Shown piece by piece: positions 2,867 through 49,861 of a DNA stretch of 64,000 nucleotides. The number at the start of each line of letters is the position of its first letter. Position 1 is the stretch's first letter. The stretch is from the IMG/VR virus record IMGVR_UViG_3300025736_000018, positions 652 to 64,651 of that record. One strand, given 5' to 3'. The notes beneath the pieces are model-generated. The model was not told where the DNA came from and did no database searches. It saw nothing but the letters and a program-made list of their open reading frames with translations. The position numbers and the translations under genes are program-made. This DNA comes from a virus.

Positions 2867-2942
2867 TTACTATTTTTTGTAATTTGTTTATATTATATAT
2901 GTAATTAGGAATTTAAAAGAAATAACTTGGAGGTTTATTAAG
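2867..2942 (+). promoter_or_regulatory. reiterated promoter/leader cassette (copy)
   Basis: TTACTATTTTTTGTAATTTGTTTATATTATAT then AACTTGGAGGTTTATTAAG-ATG. Confidence 0.55.
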
Positions 2943-3170
2943 ATGGTAAAAATGACTAATGAGATGAGAGACAAGATTTTTAATATTGGCTGGAAAGCAG
3001 CTCAAGATAATGAAGAGCATCGTCCATTTGATTATTCAAATGCAATTTTAAAAGTTTTAGAATTAACTGAAAAACCAGAAAATGATGATGAGCTTTATAT
3101 ACCATATATTGCATGGTCAAATGGCTATACATCATATTTTTTAGTTGAAGCTGCTAAAAGTTTTGAGTAA
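2943..3170 (+). CDS. hypothetical protein
   Basis: 75-aa ORF directly after the cassette. Confidence 0.55.
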   Translation: MVKMTNEMRDKIFNIGWKAAQDNEEHRPFDYSNAILKVLELTEKPENDDELYIPYIAWSNGYTSYFLVEAAKSFE

Positions 3171-3181
3171 GAAAACAAAAT

Positions 3182-3257
3182 CCGCCAGTACCTCAATTGG
3201 TAGAGAGCCTGTCTTATATGCAGGAAGTTAAAGGTTCGAGTCCTTTCTGGCGGACCA
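3182..3257 (+). tRNA. tRNA-Ile (anticodon UAU, AUA decoder)
   Basis: acceptor CCGCCAG/CTGGCGG, D-loop AATTGGTA, anticodon loop CTTATAT, T-arm AAAGG-TTCGAGT-CCTTT, encoded CCA. Confidence 0.7.
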
Positions 3258-3320
3258 AAAATATTTTTTTTAAAGAAGAGGATATCTTTAAATTTAAAAA
3301 GAATAAAAAGGAGTTGTAAA

Positions 3321-3602
3321 ATGGGAGTTTATATTAATCCTAGCGGTGAAACAAAAGAGTCTTGGTTATCGAAGCATGGTAGAATGGATAATCTATTTAT
3401 CTGGGCGGCGAAAAAGAGTCATGAGCTTCCCGTCGTACTAATGAATAATGGATTATTCACTGCAGCAGGAATAGCTTATTGTGAAAGAGAATTTGATGAG
3501 TTTATACAGCCAGATGATAGGCCAAAGATAGTGTTTATTGTTTCAATAGGAGACTTACAGGCTGTTACCGGTGGCGAATTGAGTACATATTTAAAGTTGT
3601 AA
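3321..3602 (+). CDS. hypothetical protein
   Basis: 93-aa ORF with AAGGAG RBS. Confidence 0.5.
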   Translation: MGVYINPSGETKESWLSKHGRMDNLFIWAAKKSHELPVVLMNNGLFTAAGIAYCEREFDEFIQPDDRPKIVFIVSIGDLQAVTGGELSTYLKL

Positions 3603-3730
3603 AAAAAAGGAGAATATTATTATGAAGAAAACCTAGGTTATTGGAAAATCATATTGTGAACCACCTTAAGTTTTTTTAAGAGAATTACGTTCGGAAAAAC
3701 TTAAAAAACAAAAAAAGGAGATTTAGAAAG

Positions 3731-4357
3731 ATGAACGAAAAAGAAGCAGTTAGAGCAGTAAAGGACGAATATAGAGAAGTGCTTAAATATATAGCATATG
3801 AAATTAGAGAAATGAAGAATGATAGAAAGAATCATAACAATGGTTATGTACATGGTTTATTTAGCAAACGCTATAAAGCAAGACATATGCATATTGCAAT
3901 ATGCGAGTTAAGAGGCATTCCTTATGAAAAGATTGAGGAAAAATGCCACGAAAACAATATGCCTAATAGACGAGAAATTAAGCGTATTAAAGAACAATTT
4001 GAAGATAGAGTATCAAAGCTAACTACAGAAGAAGCTGTAATTGAAGTAACACCAGATGCGTCTAAGAAACTATACGTATTAGTTCGAAGAGATTTAGATT
4101 CAAAAGGTGCTCAAGCAATTCAAGCCGGGCATGCTGCAATTAAATATGTTCAGAATAATGATTGTGCTGATTGGGATAACACATTAGTATATTTATATGT
4201 GAAAGATAAAGATTCATTATTTGAATACTTATCAACGTTTGGTCAAAATCTTCCACATTTTGAATCATTTTGTGAACCTGATTTGAATAACGAGCTAACA
4301 GCTATTGCAACATTGACAGATAGATTTGATCTATTCGAGCAATTGATTTTAATGTAA
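3731..4357 (+). CDS. protein with C-terminal PTH2-like peptidyl-tRNA hydrolase domain
   Basis: KLYVLVRRDLDSKGAQAIQAGHAA resembles the PTH2 core motif; C-terminus FCEPDLNNELTAIATL also PTH2-like. Confidence 0.6.
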   Translation: MNEKEAVRAVKDEYREVLKYIAYEIREMKNDRKNHNNGYVHGLFSKRYKARHMHIAICELRGIPYEKIEEKCHENNMPNRREIKRIKEQFEDRVSKLTTEEAVIEVTPDASKKLYVLVRRDLDSKGAQAIQAGHAAIKYVQNNDCADWDNTLVYLYVKDKDSLFEYLSTFGQNLPHFESFCEPDLNNELTAIATLTDRFDLFEQLILM

Positions 4358-4377
4358 AGAGAAGAAGAATTAAATGT

Positions 4378-4452
4378 GTGAATATAGCTTAGTGGTTAAA
4401 GCTCGGGACTCTAAATCCTACGACGAGTGTTCAATTCACTCTATTCGCGCCA
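4378..4452 (+). tRNA. suppressor tRNA (anticodon CUA, reads UAG)
   Basis: acceptor GTGAATA/TATTCGC, D-arm GCTT-AGTGGTTA-AAGC, anticodon loop CTCTAAA with CTA at 4411-4413, T-arm GAGTG-TTCAATT-CACTC, encoded CCA. Confidence 0.75.
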
Positions 4453-4473
4453 ATATATTTAGAGGTTAAAAAT

Positions 4474-4896
4474 ATGTGTAAACGCTATTTAGAAAAGGAT
4501 GAAGGTGCTATGGATTATGGCCAGCTCTTGAATAAAGTTGATCAACTAGAAAATAAAATAGTTAATCTTGAAGACGAAGTTTCTGAACTTAAAGAAAAGC
4601 TAGAAGAATATGAAGAAATAGAATATCAAGAGGGATTTTTTCTCAAAGATATGTCTAAAGAAGTTCAAAGAGCTTTTTATAATTTGAATTCAAGAGCAAT
4701 TCCTGGTTGGAATCATAATCGTTATGTCGGTCATGAACGTAAGCGAATGTACTATGAGATTGAAGATGATCGAAAAATAATAAATGATTGGCTAATTGAA
4801 AATGGAGCCGATCCTTACTTTGGTGAAGTGACTATTGATTTTATAGAAGGAAATGAAAATGCCAAGATTAAAAGCTCTCTCGAGTTAAAGGATTAG
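4474..4896 (+). CDS. hypothetical coiled-coil protein
   Basis: 140-aa ORF ending in TAG within the junction TAGAAAATGAAA. Confidence 0.5.
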   Translation: MCKRYLEKDEGAMDYGQLLNKVDQLENKIVNLEDEVSELKEKLEEYEEIEYQEGFFLKDMSKEVQRAFYNLNSRAIPGWNHNRYVGHERKRMYYEIEDDRKIINDWLIENGADPYFGEVTIDFIEGNENAKIKSSLELKD

Positions 4897-48283: not shown

Positions 48284-48602
48284 AGAAGAAAGAAAACGAA
48301 TAATGGAAAGAGAAAAGGTAATAGCGATATTTGAGCAAGCAACTGGATCTCGTTTAAGTATAGATCAAAGCGAAGCTCTTACATATGAAGTTAATAATGT
48401 TTCATTGATAATACAATGTGTACACTATACTCTTGAATATTTTGCTTATAGAAATGAAGATTGGCTTTCACTTTATAATACTAGAGCAATTATGATAGGT
48501 TATGGTAAATTTAAAGACTATAAGATAAGTGAAAGAGTTCGTAGTGTGGTATCAACTGTTGGAAAAATGAAAAGGATTATTAAGAATCACGAGTGGGATT
48601 AG
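48276..48602 (+). CDS. hypothetical protein
   Basis: internal ATG after GGAGGA; overlaps the upstream stop in ATGAATAA. Confidence 0.45.
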   Translation: MNKEERKRIMEREKVIAIFEQATGSRLSIDQSEALTYEVNNVSLIIQCVHYTLEYFAYRNEDWLSLYNTRAIMIGYGKFKDYKISERVRSVVSTVGKMKRIIKNHEWD

Positions 48603-48606
48603 AACT

Positions 48607-48903
48607 ATGATAGAAATTAATGCAAAACTTGAAGTGCTAGTTGAAGATGCACACAATTATAAAATTGATTGGAATCACTTAAATCAAGCTGGTAAACTAA
48701 TTGGTTTAGAGCCAGTATATGATTTATCACGTTTAAGAATTGTCGATCACGATCTCATTTTAGTTGAAGTAAGAGAAAATTGGACAGCAAAATGGACTAA
48801 CCTTTTTCATGAACAATATTATATTCTATCAAAGTCCGAGTTCGTTAAAAAGTGTGAAGAGTTAAAAATATATTTTATTGTAAAGATAAATAATAGGAGT
48901 TAA
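48607..48903 (+). CDS. hypothetical protein (paralog pair A)
   Basis: KIDWNHLNQAGKLIGLEPVYD ... FVKKCEELKIYFIV. Confidence 0.5.
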   Translation: MIEINAKLEVLVEDAHNYKIDWNHLNQAGKLIGLEPVYDLSRLRIVDHDLILVEVRENWTAKWTNLFHEQYYILSKSEFVKKCEELKIYFIVKINNRS

Positions 48904-48905
48904 AA

Positions 48906-49211
48906 ATGATACCGATAACAGTTAATAGGAGATGGTTAGATAATAAAATGCAACATTATCCATTTGACTGGGATGAGTTGATGGAGAGTGGTGAAATAAT
49001 CGGCTCTATTCTTGTATACAAACCTAACGGATGTGTCGCTGGAGAAGAAACCGTAGTTGCAAGAACTATAGATCTTCACGGAAAACAACTTATCAAATGG
49101 ATACATGTTGATACTTATATCAATAGTTGTATGCTATATACGAAAGAAGAATTTATAAAAAAATGTAAATCACTGAATGTAAACTTTTTAATTAGTTTTA
49201 GGAGAGATTAA
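48906..49211 (+). CDS. hypothetical protein (paralog pair B)
   Basis: PFDWDELMESGEIIGSILVYK ... FIKKCKSLNVNFLI. Confidence 0.5.
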   Translation: MIPITVNRRWLDNKMQHYPFDWDELMESGEIIGSILVYKPNGCVAGEETVVARTIDLHGKQLIKWIHVDTYINSCMLYTKEEFIKKCKSLNVNFLISFRRD

Positions 49212-49214
49212 AAA

Positions 49215-49451
49215 ATGGAAAAGCGCGTAATATTAATAGTTGAAGAGGCGATTCAACAAGCAACCGCTGACACTGGCGATGACCTAGTAAATATAGAATT
49301 TGTATGGGAGAATTGTAAATCACAGATAAGTAGAGATAATTTTAATGCATATATTAATTCTTTAATTGGAGTAGGAGATATTAAAAGGCATTATTGCAGA
49401 AATACTGAAGTAGCTATTATTGTATTTGCTGATTATCTTAATAAGAGTTAA
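49215..49451 (+). CDS. hypothetical protein
   Basis: 78-aa ORF. Confidence 0.45.
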   Translation: MEKRVILIVEEAIQQATADTGDDLVNIEFVWENCKSQISRDNFNAYINSLIGVGDIKRHYCRNTEVAIIVFADYLNKS

Positions 49452-49457
49452 TTAGAG

Positions 49458-49784
49458 ATGAAAACAACAATAAAAGATATTTTTAATGAAAAAATATTTC
49501 AAGGCTTATTTGAAGTAGAGACAATGATTGATGATATGATTTATGATGTAGCACAACATAGTGCTCCGGTAGTTAATCGTACTATTGAAATATTGAGTAC
49601 AATCAAAGCAATATGCATGCTTTATGTTGAGAATAACTATATCATTAAGTCAGAAGAAGATTACGATAGATTATGTAAGCAAATGGATTATTATATGGAT
49701 CTAGACGAAGATATGTTACCAGAACAGCGTGCTGATTTAGAATTAATAGCATTAATTGTAGAAAAATATGAGAAAAAAATATAA
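49458..49784 (+). CDS. hypothetical protein
   Basis: 108-aa ORF. Confidence 0.45.
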   Translation: MKTTIKDIFNEKIFQGLFEVETMIDDMIYDVAQHSAPVVNRTIEILSTIKAICMLYVENNYIIKSEEDYDRLCKQMDYYMDLDEDMLPEQRADLELIALIVEKYEKKI

Positions 49785-49792
49785 TTATTTAA

Positions 49793-49861
49793 GTTACTAT
49801 TTTTTGTAATTTTATTATATTATATATAAGTAAATTTAAGAATAACTTGGAGGTTATTAAA
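49793..49861 (+). promoter_or_regulatory. reiterated promoter/leader cassette (copy)
   Basis: GTTACTATTTTTTGTAATTTTATTATATTATAT then AACTTGGAGGTTATTAAA-ATG. Confidence 0.55.

What the first reader, a model, noticed from the sequence alone, without database searches (positions are those of the whole stretch)
2867..49861. A regulatory cassette of about 80 bp reiterated about 16 times
The motif (A)GTTACTATTTTTTGTAATT-N(4-8)-TTATATTATAT recurs at 2867, 5586, 8043, 12829, 14483, 15093, 17414, 23369, 25703, 28211, 32729, 34951, 39118, 42326, 47747 and 49793. In most copies it is followed at a fixed distance by the leader AACTTGGAGGTT(T)ATTAA(G/A)-ATG. Two copies are immediately preceded by near-identical GAGAAGG-type terminators (23308, 32681). 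It resembles a -35/-10 promoter (TTACTA ... TATTAT, about 18-nt spacer). It could instead be recognised by a phage-encoded sigma factor or RNA polymerase. The identical leaders would give these genes uniform translation initiation and possibly a shared leader-binding regulator.
Basis: seen in the sequence. Interest (0 to 1): 0.5.

Follow-up and report, generated by a model that had tools for sequence, protein, structure and literature searches.

The report
Repeated phage promoter and leader cassette
An uncultivated large phage starts at least 18 same-direction gene clusters with one near-identical promoter, usually joined to one strong ribosome-binding leader; this is an ordinary kind of phage control element, unusual only because its upstream box does not look like a standard bacterial -35.

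Summary
A position-weight scan finds exactly 18 copies, all on the + strand, and nothing of intermediate score. The register is rigid: G-TTACTATTT(TTT), then 13 bp, then TATATTAT. A T/purine step follows 7 nt after TATATT.

Seventeen copies lie in intergenic gaps 48-92 nt upstream of the first ATG of a gene cluster; the weakest, at 58135, overlaps the called start codon. The leader GGAGGTT(T/A)ATTA occurs 12 times, only downstream of the box.

I read the unit as an A/T-rich upstream tract, an atypical -35-region box, a sigma-70-type -10 and a 5' UTR with a strong Shine-Dalgarno. It heads prereplicative units for tRNAs, RNA repair, NAD, nucleotide and queuosine synthesis, and DNA polymerase.

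A relative sharing only about 51% protein identity keeps the box, spacing and leader. Two others carry GTTTCTTTT at the same spacing. More distant relatives use TTGACA-N17-TATAAT.

What reads the box is unresolved. It could be the host sigma alone or a phage factor. No sigma factor, RNA polymerase, MotA or AsiA was found in the roughly 87 kb scanned.

The closest analogues are T4-type PeSL cassettes and T4 early and middle promoters. Side finding: the phage reads TGA as Trp, rarely left of 51.8 kb and mostly right of it.

The parts
2866..2945 (+). Cassette 1: box, -10, leader AACTTGGAGGTTTATTAAG, ATG of a 75-aa gene. Its unit also holds tRNA-Ile, a tRNA with anticodon CUA and tRNA-Ser.
   Evidence: PWM 42.0 bits; sequence; gene map; tRNAs
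5587..5655 (+). Cassette 2, a variant with one T fewer and -10 TAAATT, placed directly after tRNA-Ser. The next ATG opens only a 17-codon ORF; the next real gene starts at 5784.
   Evidence: 33.2 bits
8043..8116 (+). Cassette 3 with the full leader ATAACTTGGAGGTTATTAAG-ATG (93-aa gene).
   Evidence: 40.8 bits
9933..9984 (+).
   Evidence: 32.2 bits
12819..12889 (+). Cassette 5, leader AAAACGGAGGTTTATTAAAA-ATG.
   Evidence: 41.1 bits
14483..14557 (+). Cassette 6 with the full leader.
   Evidence: 31.2 bits
15025..15077 (+). Intrinsic-terminator-like hairpin plus T-run just upstream of cassette 7.
   Evidence: -21.6 kcal/mol, z = -6.7
15092..15157 (+). Cassette 7 (TTACTTTTT variant), own SD AAGGAG, ahead of the DUF932 gene.
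   Evidence: 34.1 bits
17412..17484 (+). Cassette 8, 98% identical over 66 nt to cassette 16. It heads the NAD-salvage unit (NAPRTase, NAD synthase), which runs on to ThyX.
   Evidence: 41.7 bits; pair identity; Pfam
23307..23344 (+). GAGAAGG-type terminator hairpin plus T7 upstream of cassette 9.
23369..23436 (+). Cassette 9 with the full leader; its unit ends with RtcB.
   Evidence: 44.7 bits
25703..25787 (+). Cassette 10 with the full leader and the longest linker of the leader-bearing copies.
   Evidence: 33.5 bits
28211..28275 (+). Cassette 11, leader AAACGGAGGTTAATTAGA-ATG.
   Evidence: 42.8 bits
32679..32720 (+). GAGAGAAGG-type terminator hairpin plus T8 upstream of cassette 12.
32729..32799 (+). 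Cassette 12 with the full leader, ahead of the CCA-adding enzyme gene.
   Evidence: 43.3 bits
34952..35003 (+). Cassette 13, short leader, SD AAGGAG, ahead of the cREC_REC receiver-domain gene.
   Evidence: 29.9 bits
39117..39212 (+). Cassette 14, long leader with its own SD, inside the queuosine-synthesis region.
   Evidence: 29.3 bits
42326..42403 (+). Cassette 15 (best score) with the full leader. It heads the unit with the 1269-aa DNA polymerase III alpha gene and a PD-(D/E)XK nuclease.
   Evidence: 46.4 bits
47738..47806 (+). Cassette 16, the twin of cassette 8.
   Evidence: 44.8 bits
49793..49864 (+). Cassette 17 with the full leader; the last strong copy before the TGA-rich block.
   Evidence: 44.7 bits
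58134..58164 (+). The predicted start falls after the called ATG, so function is doubtful.
   Evidence: 26.2 bits

Best explanation
Each copy is a promoter-plus-leader cassette for a bacterial-type RNA polymerase carrying a sigma-70-family factor.

Inferred anatomy, numbered from the predicted start:
- An A/T-rich UP-like tract from about -60 to -36.
- An invariant box G-TTACTATTT(TTT) at -35 to -23, in the place of a -35 element.
- Ten variable bp.
- T-TATATT-AT, with TATATT at -12 to -7.
- A start at a purine preceded by T.
- A 14-58-nt A-rich 5' UTR. In 12 copies it ends in GGAGGU, 8-10 nt (once 14 nt) before the ATG.

The cassettes re-initiate transcription about every 2.8 kb along one long same-strand arm of prereplicative genes. 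They give the first gene of each unit the strongest ribosome-binding site in the genome.

I favour recognition by the host holoenzyme without a phage factor. That would make these early promoters optimised beyond the host consensus, as in T4. The box would then be a host-adapted or polymerase-contact 'dialect' of the -35 region.

Shown: the repeat, its register, strand, position, linkage to the leader, and conservation in relatives. Inferred: promoter function, the start site, the timing, and who binds the box.
For: - Clean site set: 18 of 18 on the coding strand, with no intermediate scores.
- Seventeen copies are intergenic, with the next ATG 48-92 nt from the box start; the eighteenth (58135) overlaps the called ATG.
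- TATATT keeps the key A at -11 and T at -7 in all 18 copies. T is at position 34 in 17 of 18 copies and a purine at position 35 in 17 of 18, which fits a start 7 nt after the -10.
- The upstream 23 bp are 83% A+T, against 72% for all intergenic DNA.
- No canonical TTGACA-N16-18-TATAAT lies in any + strand intergenic gap. The generic sigma-70 scan is not enriched over shuffles. This is therefore the only recurrent promoter-like class seen in the window.
- Full GGAGG Shine-Dalgarno in 12 of 17 first genes against 6 of 114 other genes; the leader is found only after the box.
- Three copies directly follow terminator hairpins.
- Genes served are tRNAs, RtcB, RNA ligase, CCA-adding enzyme, NAD salvage, ThyX, queuosine synthesis and DNA polymerase. 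Further copies outside the window sit beside the primase and ribonucleotide reductase genes.
- Conservation: L067 (CCA-adding enzyme 51% identical) has GTTACTATTTTTT-N10-TATATTAT, then AAAAAACTTGGAGGTTTT, all after a hairpin plus T8. L068 and L031 have GTTTCTTTT-N13-TATATT at the same spacing.
- Relatives L029 and L030 have TTGACA-N17-TATATT or TATAAT upstream of the same polymerase gene and elsewhere. This ties the shared -10 half to ordinary sigma-70-type transcription.
- The cassette-rich arm is poor in TGA sense codons (14% of Trp codons) while the cassette-poor block is rich (78%). In recoded phages, low use of the recoded codon marks genes expressed before the code switch (10.1101/2021.08.26.457843).
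Against: - There are no transcript data, so start sites are inferred.
- The box matches TTGACA at only 3 of 6 positions in either register. It is nonetheless invariant at 9 positions and holds 18.4 bits, more than the -10 half at 12.5 bits. The total is about 37 bits where about 13.7 would suffice to find the sites. Such excess is what one expects if an extra or different protein reads the box.
- Relatives with TTGACA show that a canonical -35 works in this phage group, so the switch of dialect needs an explanation.
- The host is unknown.
- Some genes inside cassette-headed units need TGA read as Trp: ThyX, FolE2, the polymerase N-terminus and dUTPase. Not everything downstream can therefore be translated in a standard-code cell at time zero.
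- About half of the genome, including any structural or late region, was not seen.
Confidence: 0.5

Rival explanations
1. The same cassette is a promoter, but the box GTTACTATTTTTT is read by a phage-specified factor. Three forms are possible: a phage sigma factor; a MotA/AsiA-like pair that displaces sigma region 4 ('sigma appropriation'); or a virion-delivered protein. Sigma region 2 of the host factor would still read TATATT. The cassettes would then be a phage-specific early or middle class.
For: - The box is non-canonical, invariant, and richer in information than the -10.
- It spans about -35 to -26, 13 bp upstream of the -10. That is the geometry given for the T4 MotA box: at -35 to -26 when 13 bp from the -10, replacing the -35 (PMC2988021).
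- Related phages show discrete 'dialects' (GTTACTATTT, GTTTCTTTT, TTGACA), as expected if a phage-encoded reader co-evolves with its sites.
- The exact 31-bp pattern is not repeated in any of 185,579 species genomes; there were 6 single hits.
- Genes served (nucleotide metabolism, replication, tRNAs) are the T4 'middle' set.
- Several downstream genes need TGA suppression, so they are not strictly immediate-early.
Against: - No sigma factor, RNA polymerase subunit, MotA, AsiA or other transcription factor was hit. Pfam was run on the window and on four extra loci. PHROGs was run on window genes from 79 to about 53.3 kb and 56.9-59.2 kb. The precomputed Pfam hits for both flanks show none either.
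- No second, host-type promoter class that could express such a factor first was seen in about 79 kb of contiguous sequence. The factor would have to be injected or encoded elsewhere.
- The box sequence is unlike the MotA box (a/t)(a/t)TGCTT(t/c)a.
- The genome-collection test used the full pattern, so it cannot exclude a host consensus of this type.
Confidence: 0.33
2. The repeat is mainly a protein-binding or recombination site rather than a promoter. It could be an operator for a repressor, a site for a nucleoid or replication protein, or a homology patch that mediates gene shuffling. On this view the promoter resemblance is incidental.
For: - Very high conservation of a 9-13-bp box.
- An imperfect dyad, AGTTAC-N8-GTAATT, in about 11 of 18 copies.
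- In T4-type phages, PeSL cassettes do act as recombination substrates (PMC2839356).
- One pair of cassettes is 98% identical over 66 nt, which suggests copying or conversion.
Against: - The dyad is absent from 7 copies.
- The second box has the exact sigma-70 -10 features and spacing.
- Strand, distance to the Shine-Dalgarno and ATG, and placement after terminators all fit transcription initiation.
- Strain variants are at least 99.9% identical and show no cassette-bounded indel; the one replaced segment (58424-58859) is not flanked by cassettes.
- A recombination role would add to promoter function rather than replace it.
Confidence: 0.07
3. The similarity is only the trace of recent duplications of one intergenic segment, with no selection on the sequence.
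For: Cassettes 17413 and 47739 are nearly identical. The population is almost clonal.
Against: - Other cassette pairs are at most 74% identical over 66 nt, yet the two boxes stay invariant while the 10-bp spacer, linker and flanks vary.
- Box, spacing and leader persist in a phage whose orthologous protein is only 51% identical.
Confidence: 0.03

Closest known systems
PeSL (promoter-early stem-loop) cassettes of T4-type phages (Arbiol et al. 2010, PMC2839356; Comeau et al. 2014, PMC4122927)
   Same: - A short composite regulatory unit repeated many times in one orientation between mostly small genes of unknown function.
- An A/T-rich tract, -35 and -10 boxes and a Shine-Dalgarno in one conserved block.
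- Some copies directly follow a terminator hairpin.
- The unit is conserved between related phages more strongly than the genes it flanks.
   Different: - PeSL promoters match the E. coli sigma-70 consensus; here the -35-region box does not.
- The stem-loop defines PeSLs, but it is present at only 3 of 18 copies here.
- PeSL-mediated indels and mini-circles were shown experimentally. No cassette-bounded rearrangement was seen here.
- This phage uses a PolIII-alpha replicase and genetic code 4, so it is not a T4-type phage.
T4 early ('uber' UP/-35/TGn/-10) promoters (Hinton 2010, PMC2988021)
   Same: - Many near-identical very strong promoters with extra conserved positions beyond the host consensus.
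- An A/T-rich upstream element.
- Located in the prereplicative gene arm and read by host polymerase at once after infection.
- Early transcripts run on into downstream genes.
   Different: [quoted passage not shown] This element has neither a TTGACA-like hexamer nor a conserved TGn.
T4 middle promoters (MotA box plus sigma-70 -10; sigma appropriation by AsiA and MotA)
   Same: - A host-type -10 combined with a phage-specific 9-10-bp box that replaces the -35, 12-13 bp upstream of the -10.
- Serves nucleotide-metabolism, replication and tRNA genes.
   Different: - The box sequence is unrelated to (a/t)(a/t)TGCTT(t/c)a.
- No MotA or AsiA homologue was detected in the sequence available.
- No separate early class was seen that could express such factors.
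Stop-codon-recoded (code 4, TGA = Trp) phages (Borges et al., 10.1101/2021.08.26.457843)
   Same: - TGA is used as a sense codon, unevenly along the genome: low in replication-type genes, high in another block.
- Large genome with many tRNAs.
   Different: - This concerns the genome context, not the cassette itself.
- The TGA-rich block here encodes glycosyltransferases, GroEL, ClpP and sugar-nucleotide enzymes, not the structural or lysis genes reported.
- No tRNA with anticodon UCA was found in the parts examined.

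Membership tests
Sigma-70-type (-35/-10) bacterial promoter | A -10 hexamer of type TAnnnT (consensus TATAAT) about 7 nt upstream of the start | tested here: met
   TATATT in 17 of 18 copies and TAAATT in one. A at -11 and T at -7 in all 18. A T/purine step 7 nt downstream in 17 of 18.
Sigma-70-type (-35/-10) bacterial promoter | A -35 hexamer resembling TTGACA, 16-18 bp upstream of the -10 | tested here: inconclusive
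   Spacing fits: GTTACT at 17 bp or TTACTA at 16 bp. Only 3 of 6 positions match in either register, and the box is invariant rather than drifting towards TTGACA.
Sigma-70-type (-35/-10) bacterial promoter | Located upstream of, and co-oriented with, the genes served | tested here: met
   18 of 18 on the coding strand. Seventeen are intergenic, with the ATG 48-92 nt from the box start; copy 58135 overlaps the called ATG.
Sigma-70-type (-35/-10) bacterial promoter | Primary transcripts start at the predicted position | not testable with these tools
   No transcript data are available; the phage is uncultivated.
PeSL cassette (T4-type phages) | A strong sigma-70-consensus early promoter with an A/T-rich upstream tract | tested here: inconclusive
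   The A/T tract (83% A+T) and the -10 are present. The -35 is not at consensus.
PeSL cassette (T4-type phages) | An adjacent stable stem-loop (terminator) as a constant part of the motif | tested here: not met
   Terminator-like hairpins precede only copies 15093, 23370 and 32730. Two other copies follow tRNA genes, and the remaining 13 have no stable hairpin plus T-run.
PeSL cassette (T4-type phages) | Insertions, deletions or replacements between related genomes bounded by cassettes | tested here: inconclusive
   Fifteen variant contigs are at least 99.9% identical to the window. The one replaced segment is not cassette-bounded. Relatives are too divergent or too short to align.
T4 middle promoter / sigma appropriation | A phage-specific box centred near -30, 12 +/- 1 bp from a sigma-70 -10, replacing the -35 | tested here: met
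   The box spans positions 0-9 and the -10 starts at position 23, so the gap is 13 bp. The definition is taken from PMC2988021.
T4 middle promoter / sigma appropriation | MotA-box sequence (a/t)(a/t)TGCTT(t/c)a | tested here: not met
   The box here is GTTACTATTT.
T4 middle promoter / sigma appropriation | MotA and AsiA homologues encoded by the phage | tested here: inconclusive
   No hit in Pfam or PHROGs on the window, or in Pfam on four extra loci. Precomputed Pfam hits for the flanks show none. About half of the genome of at least 176 kb was not available.
Single-subunit (T7-like) RNA polymerase promoter | One contiguous conserved block of about 20 bp running through the start site, plus a phage single-subunit polymerase gene | tested here: not met
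   The element is bipartite with a variable 10-bp spacer, and conservation stops before the start. Relatives pair the same -10 with TTGACA. No such polymerase was found in the sequence available.

The most novel reading that the evidence does not exclude
The box GTT(A/T)CT(A/T)TTT is the recognition site of an undescribed phage-encoded or virion-delivered specificity factor. This could be an alternative sigma factor or a MotA/AsiA-like appropriator in a clade of uncultivated code-4 large phages. It would have replaced the canonical TTGACA still used by sister phages. The linked SD-bearing leader would then be a second, post-transcriptional handle on the same gene set, for example a target of a leader-specific nuclease or repressor in the manner of T4 RegB or RegA.
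Probability: 0.3. Interest if true: 0.6.

Novelty: new member of a known kind. Interest (0 to 1): 0.35.

Why it matters
- It gives a ready-made transcription map for a large uncultivated phage that has no close relative among deposited genomes. The map comprises at least 18 units in the window and at least 9 further cassette copies elsewhere.
- It offers a compact, portable promoter-plus-RBS module of about 70 bp whose two halves are conserved across phages at about 50% protein identity.
- The contrast between promoter dialects (GTTACTATTT, GTTTCTTTT, TTGACA) in related phages is a tractable case for asking how phage promoters track the polymerase that reads them.
- The cassette-rich, TGA-poor arm sits next to a cassette-poor, TGA-rich block. 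This offers a way to test whether codon reassignment and promoter class are used together to time gene expression.

Tried and rejected
- **Close relatives among deposited phages.** There is no near DNA match. The polymerase is only about 26% identical to known phage proteins. The cassette itself gives only chance-level matches.
- **IMG/VR scan with the 19-mer.** It gave 14 single, unrelated hits. An IMG/VR scan with the polymerase found only the N-terminal domain in unrelated contigs.
- **Species-genome scan with the 31-bp pattern.** It gave 6 single hits, so there is no prophage and no host-like repeat. The test is too strict to rule out a host consensus.
- **Metagenome scan.** It gave 26 loci. 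Six belong to this phage: one lies within L025 and the other five look like parts of its genome not otherwise seen. The rest are single hits, probably chance; L057 has a similar box and a GGAGG leader and may be a relative.
- **Conserved leader RNA structure.** MFE hairpins are weak, at 0 to -6.5 kcal/mol, with mostly insignificant z-scores. RNAalifold predicts no consensus pairs, and no Rfam family matches. Complementary A/U arms flanking the Shine-Dalgarno are longer at first genes (5.8 against 3.95 bp, p = 2e-4, copies not independent). The arms differ between leader types, but in shifted registers. This is suggestive only.
- **Cassette-mediated shuffling among strain variants.** None was seen.
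- **Host inference from GroEL.** The nearest bacterial sequences are only 40-45% identical and come from many phyla, so this was uninformative.
- **Sigma factor or polymerase search.** See the membership table; none was found in the sequence available.
- **Other codes.** Reading TAG or TAA as sense does not repair the fragmented genes; reading TGA as sense does.

Full report
**What the window is.** The 64-kb window has 30% G+C. All credible genes lie on the + strand and GC skew is steadily positive. It carries nine tRNA genes and a tmRNA gene. It also carries genes for RNA ligase, RtcB, a CCA-adding enzyme, NAPRTase, NAD synthase, ThyX, dUTPase, queuosine-precursor enzymes, a DnaE-type DNA polymerase, a PD-(D/E)XK nuclease, GroEL, ClpP and sugar-nucleotide enzymes. 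Between them lie many small genes with no known relatives.

There is no near DNA match among deposited phages, and the polymerase is only about 26% identical to known phage proteins. Virtually the same sequence (at least 99.9% identical) occurs in many metagenome assemblies. It is found on contigs of 106.5 kb and 71 kb, and the longest contig carrying its polymerase is 176 kb. It is therefore an uncultivated large phage, and the window is part of a long same-strand arm.

**Checking the observation.** The 19-mer GTTACTATTTTTTGTAATT with up to three mismatches gives 10 hits, all on the + strand, against 0.32 expected. Inspection of the 16 listed sites shows the motif at all of them. Two coordinates are about 10 nt off (12829 should be 12820; 47747 should be 47739). 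A looser two-box search added copies at 9934 and 58135.

In all 18 copies the register is the same. TTACTATTT occupies positions 1-9 and TATATTAT positions 23-30, and 15 columns are invariant. A weight matrix built from the copies recovers exactly these 18 sites, at 26-46 bits, on the + strand. It finds nothing on the - strand and nothing between 12 and 26 bits. Locally shuffled sequence gives 0-1 hits of at least 12 bits per run. The matrix was built from these sites, so the scores are circular; the empty gap between 12 and 26 bits and the strand bias are not.

The leader claim holds with one correction. GGAGGTT(T/A)ATTA occurs 12 times and AACTTGGAGG 8 times. Every occurrence is within 110 nt downstream of a box, and there is none anywhere else. 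The distance is not fixed: an A-rich linker of variable length separates the -10 from the leader. The two GAGAAGG...CCTTCTC hairpins are the only two in the window. Both are followed by T-runs.

**Anatomy.**
- *Upstream tract.* Upstream of the box there is no sequence homology between copies. The 23 bp there are 83% A+T, against 72% for intergenic DNA in general.
- *Box.* G, present in 12 of 18 copies, then TTACTATTT (invariant except for one copy at one position), then a T-run.
- *Spacer.* About ten variable bp follow.
- *-10 region.* T-TATATT-AT.
- *Start.* T is at position 34 in 17 of 18 copies and a purine at position 35 in 17 of 18. If position 35 is the start, TATATT is at -12 to -7 with the critical A at -11 and T at -7. 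The box then spans -35 to about -23.
- *Spacing.* The hexamer GTTACT is 17 bp from TATATT, and TTACTA is 16 bp from it. Either matches TTGACA at only three of six positions.
- *Information.* The box holds 18.4 bits, the -10 block 12.5 bits, and the whole element about 37 bits. About 13.7 bits would be enough to specify some 27 sites in the genome.
- *UTR.* The predicted 5' UTR is 14-58 nt long. In the 12 leader-bearing copies GGAGG lies 8-10 nt (once 14 nt) from the ATG.

**Position relative to genes.** Genes were called with TGA as a sense codon (see the side finding below), which gives 89% coding density. Seventeen copies then sit in intergenic gaps in front of the first gene of a tightly packed cluster, on average one per 2.8 kb between 2.8 and 50 kb.

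First genes have a full GGAGG in 12 of 17 cases, against 6 of 114 for all other genes. Copies at 15093, 23370 and 32730 directly follow terminator-like hairpins (-21.6, -13.5 and -17.2 kcal/mol). Copies at 5588 and 9934 follow tRNA genes, and the rest have no such structure.

Copy 58135 is the weakest. It lacks a leader and overlaps the called start codon, so its function is doubtful. Copy 5588 is followed by only a 17-codon ORF before the next gene, at 5784.

**No other promoter class in the window.** No canonical TTGACA-N16-18-TATAAT with at most one mismatch per hexamer lies in a + strand intergenic gap; all 19 + strand matches are inside genes. The generic sigma-70 scan finds no more sites than in shuffled sequence: 124 against 116, 103 against 117, and 127 against 122.

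**Copies outside the window.**
- Flanking DNA of the same phage holds further cassettes about 5.2 kb and 0.3 kb upstream of the window and about 5.8 kb beyond its end.
- A metagenome scan with the 31-bp pattern returned pieces of three more contigs from the same sample series: Ga0222658_1000132, Ga0222658_1000200 and Ga0222628_1005119.
- These pieces hold six distinct cassettes. Five have leaders of the shared type; three read AACTTGGAGGTTAT or AACTTGGAGGTCAT. The sixth, at L059 position 327, has none.
- They lie next to an intein-bearing ribonucleotide reductase, a macro-domain protein, a primase and six further tRNA genes.
- The tRNA anticodons do not overlap those already seen, so these pieces are probably other parts of the same genome. 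That is an inference.

**Relatives.**
- Proteins 47% identical to the polymerase lie on contigs L029 and L030. Their intergenic regions, including the one in front of the polymerase gene, carry TTGACA-N17-TATATT or TATAAT, often after a terminator. They have no copy of the box.
- A closer relative, L031 (58% identical), has two intergenic sites reading GTTTCTTTT(T)-N13-TATATT(A/G)T at the same spacing.
- Via the CCA-adding enzyme, L067 (51% identical, a different sample) shows a hairpin plus T8, then AGTTACTATTTTTT-N10-TATATTAT-TTATG, then AAAAAACTTGGAGGTTTT-N5-ATG. It has a second, weaker copy as well.
- L068 (46% identical) shows GTTTCTTTT-N13-TATATTAT followed by AACTTAATTTGGAGG.

The box, its spacing and much of the leader therefore persist where proteins have diverged to about 50% identity. 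Within the window the spacer, linker and flanks vary freely, and apart from one 98%-identical pair the cassettes are at most 74% identical to each other. This argues for selection on the two boxes and the SD region, not mere recent copying. The -10 half is shared with relatives that use an ordinary -35.

**Who reads it.**
- Pfam on all window genes, PHROGs on genes from 79 to about 53.3 kb and 56.9-59.2 kb, and Pfam on four extra loci all lack a sigma factor, an RNA polymerase subunit, MotA, AsiA or any other transcription factor. The precomputed Pfam hits for both flanks lack them too. About half of the genome remains unseen.
- The exact pattern is not repeated in any of 185,579 species genomes. 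That test is too strict to exclude a host consensus.
- *For the host enzyme alone:* no other promoter class is visible that could first express a phage factor, relatives use canonical promoters at equivalent places, and the arm avoids TGA.
- *For a phage factor:* the box is invariant, information-rich and non-canonical; its geometry is like that of the T4 MotA box; and related phages show discrete dialects.
- I put host-alone at about 0.5 and a phage factor at about 0.33.
- A single-subunit polymerase is unlikely, because the element is bipartite and shares its -10 with TTGACA promoters.

**The leader.** No Rfam family matches. Predicted hairpins are weak, and RNAalifold finds no consensus structure. 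The SD is nevertheless flanked by complementary A/U arms in each leader type: ATAAC/GTTAT, AATAAA/TTTATT and AATTAA/TTAATT, with AAAAC/GTTTT in L067. Such arms are longer at first genes than at internal genes (5.8 against 3.95 bp, p = 2e-4). The copies are not independent and the registers differ. A small SD-presenting hairpin is possible but unproven. The safest statement is that cassette-proximal genes get the best SD (GGAGGU) at near-optimal spacing.

**Comparison with known systems.**
- *PeSL cassettes of T4-type phages* are the closest described kind. They combine a stem-loop, an A/T tract, a sigma-70 promoter and an SD, are repeated between orphan genes, and act as recombination substrates. 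This element fails the PeSL definition on the constant stem-loop (3 of 18 copies) and on the consensus -35. No cassette-bounded rearrangement was seen.
- *T4 early promoters* are similar in function, but they do match the host -35.
- *T4 middle promoters* share the geometry, but not the sequence or detectable factors.
- I therefore file the element as a new member of the known kind 'reiterated phage promoter-leader cassette'. It works like these systems without belonging to any of the named families.

**Side finding: genetic code.** Reading TGA as sense fuses fragmented genes. These include GroEL, glycosyltransferases, a DegT-type enzyme, ThyX, FolE2, dUTPase and the polymerase N-terminus. Some public assemblies already call these genes in that way.

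In the DegT-type protein, two of five TGA positions align with invariant Trp and one with Tyr of solved homologues. The codon therefore most likely encodes Trp. TGA makes up 33 of 235 Trp codons (14%) left of 51.8 kb and 42 of 54 (78%) right of it. The switch lies just after the last strong cassette.

Several TGAs in the left arm sit where a standard-code stop would be expected: at ATGA overlaps at 24493 and 29972, and at the end of QueC. Relatives L029 and L030 also use in-frame TGA. No tRNA with anticodon UCA was found in the parts examined, whereas a tRNA with anticodon CUA is present. Uneven use of a recoded stop codon between gene blocks is described for recoded gut phages.

**Verdict.** The identity of the factor that reads the upstream box is open. 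The kind of element is known, and interest is moderate.

Noticed in passing
whole window; boundary near 51800: The phage reads TGA as a sense codon, most likely Trp (W at two invariant positions of a DegT-type enzyme). Use is very uneven: 33 TGA against 202 TGG left of 51.8 kb, and 42 TGA against 12 TGG right of it. The switch comes just after the last strong cassette. The TGA-rich block holds glycosyltransferases, GroEL, ClpP and sugar-nucleotide enzymes.
   Followed up: partly
24493-24496, 29972-29975, 39038-39040 and similar: In the TGA-poor arm several TGAs lie where a standard-code stop is expected: at ATGA start/stop overlaps, and at the end of QueC at a normal length of 222 aa. TGA may therefore act as a stop early in infection and be read through later. 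The alternative is that these genes simply have short C-terminal extensions.
   Followed up: no
4378-4452: There is a tRNA with anticodon CUA (amber-suppressor type; ARAGORN labels it Pyl; Rfam tRNA score 61 bits). Yet TAG ends about a fifth of the genes, and reading TAG as sense does not mend any gene. No tRNA with anticodon UCA was found in about 100 kb, although TGA is the recoded codon.
   Followed up: partly
9083-9456: A full-length tmRNA gene (Rfam RF00023, 121 bits) with the short tag ANNLQLAA lies inside the phage's tRNA region.
   Followed up: no
1606-12667 and L025, L055, L059: At least 24 different tRNA anticodons occur in this phage. They are co-transcribed with small ORFs and lie next to an RNA-repair set: RNA ligase 6086-7252, RtcB 24493-25695, CCA-adding enzyme 32797-34251 and a cREC_REC receiver domain 35001-35444.
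   Followed up: no
42672-46481: The DNA polymerase III alpha gene is 1269 aa in code 4. It has an extra N-terminal domain of about 140 aa that holds four of its five TGA codons; the fifth lies just after the PHP motif that follows it. That domain alone matches unrelated IMG/VR contigs. Orthologues in relatives carry inteins.
   Followed up: no
26056-27276 and 28273-28656: A family of three or four paralogous Cys-rich proteins sharing KEPF(K/R)ELIKKYRSIT and NAFNERANHIE(K/E)WL has no family match. One of them is the first gene after cassette 28212.
   Followed up: no
17412-17478 and 47738-47804: Two cassettes 30 kb apart are 98% identical over 66 nt, while all other pairs are at most 74% identical. 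This suggests a recent duplication or gene conversion.
   Followed up: partly
58424-58859 versus L024 255-674: This is the only structural difference among 15 variant contigs: a segment of about 430 bp is replaced by unrelated sequence in one assembly. It is not bounded by cassettes.
   Followed up: partly
L021 19196-19894 (about 69.1 kb in window coordinates): A second ThyX-family gene lies on the opposite strand and marks the end of the + strand arm. A further cassette on the + strand follows it.
   Followed up: no
L040 (contig Ga0222658_1000132): A ribonucleotide reductase gene, probably of the same phage, is interrupted by an intein and flanked by GIY-YIG/HNH-like ORFs.
   Followed up: no
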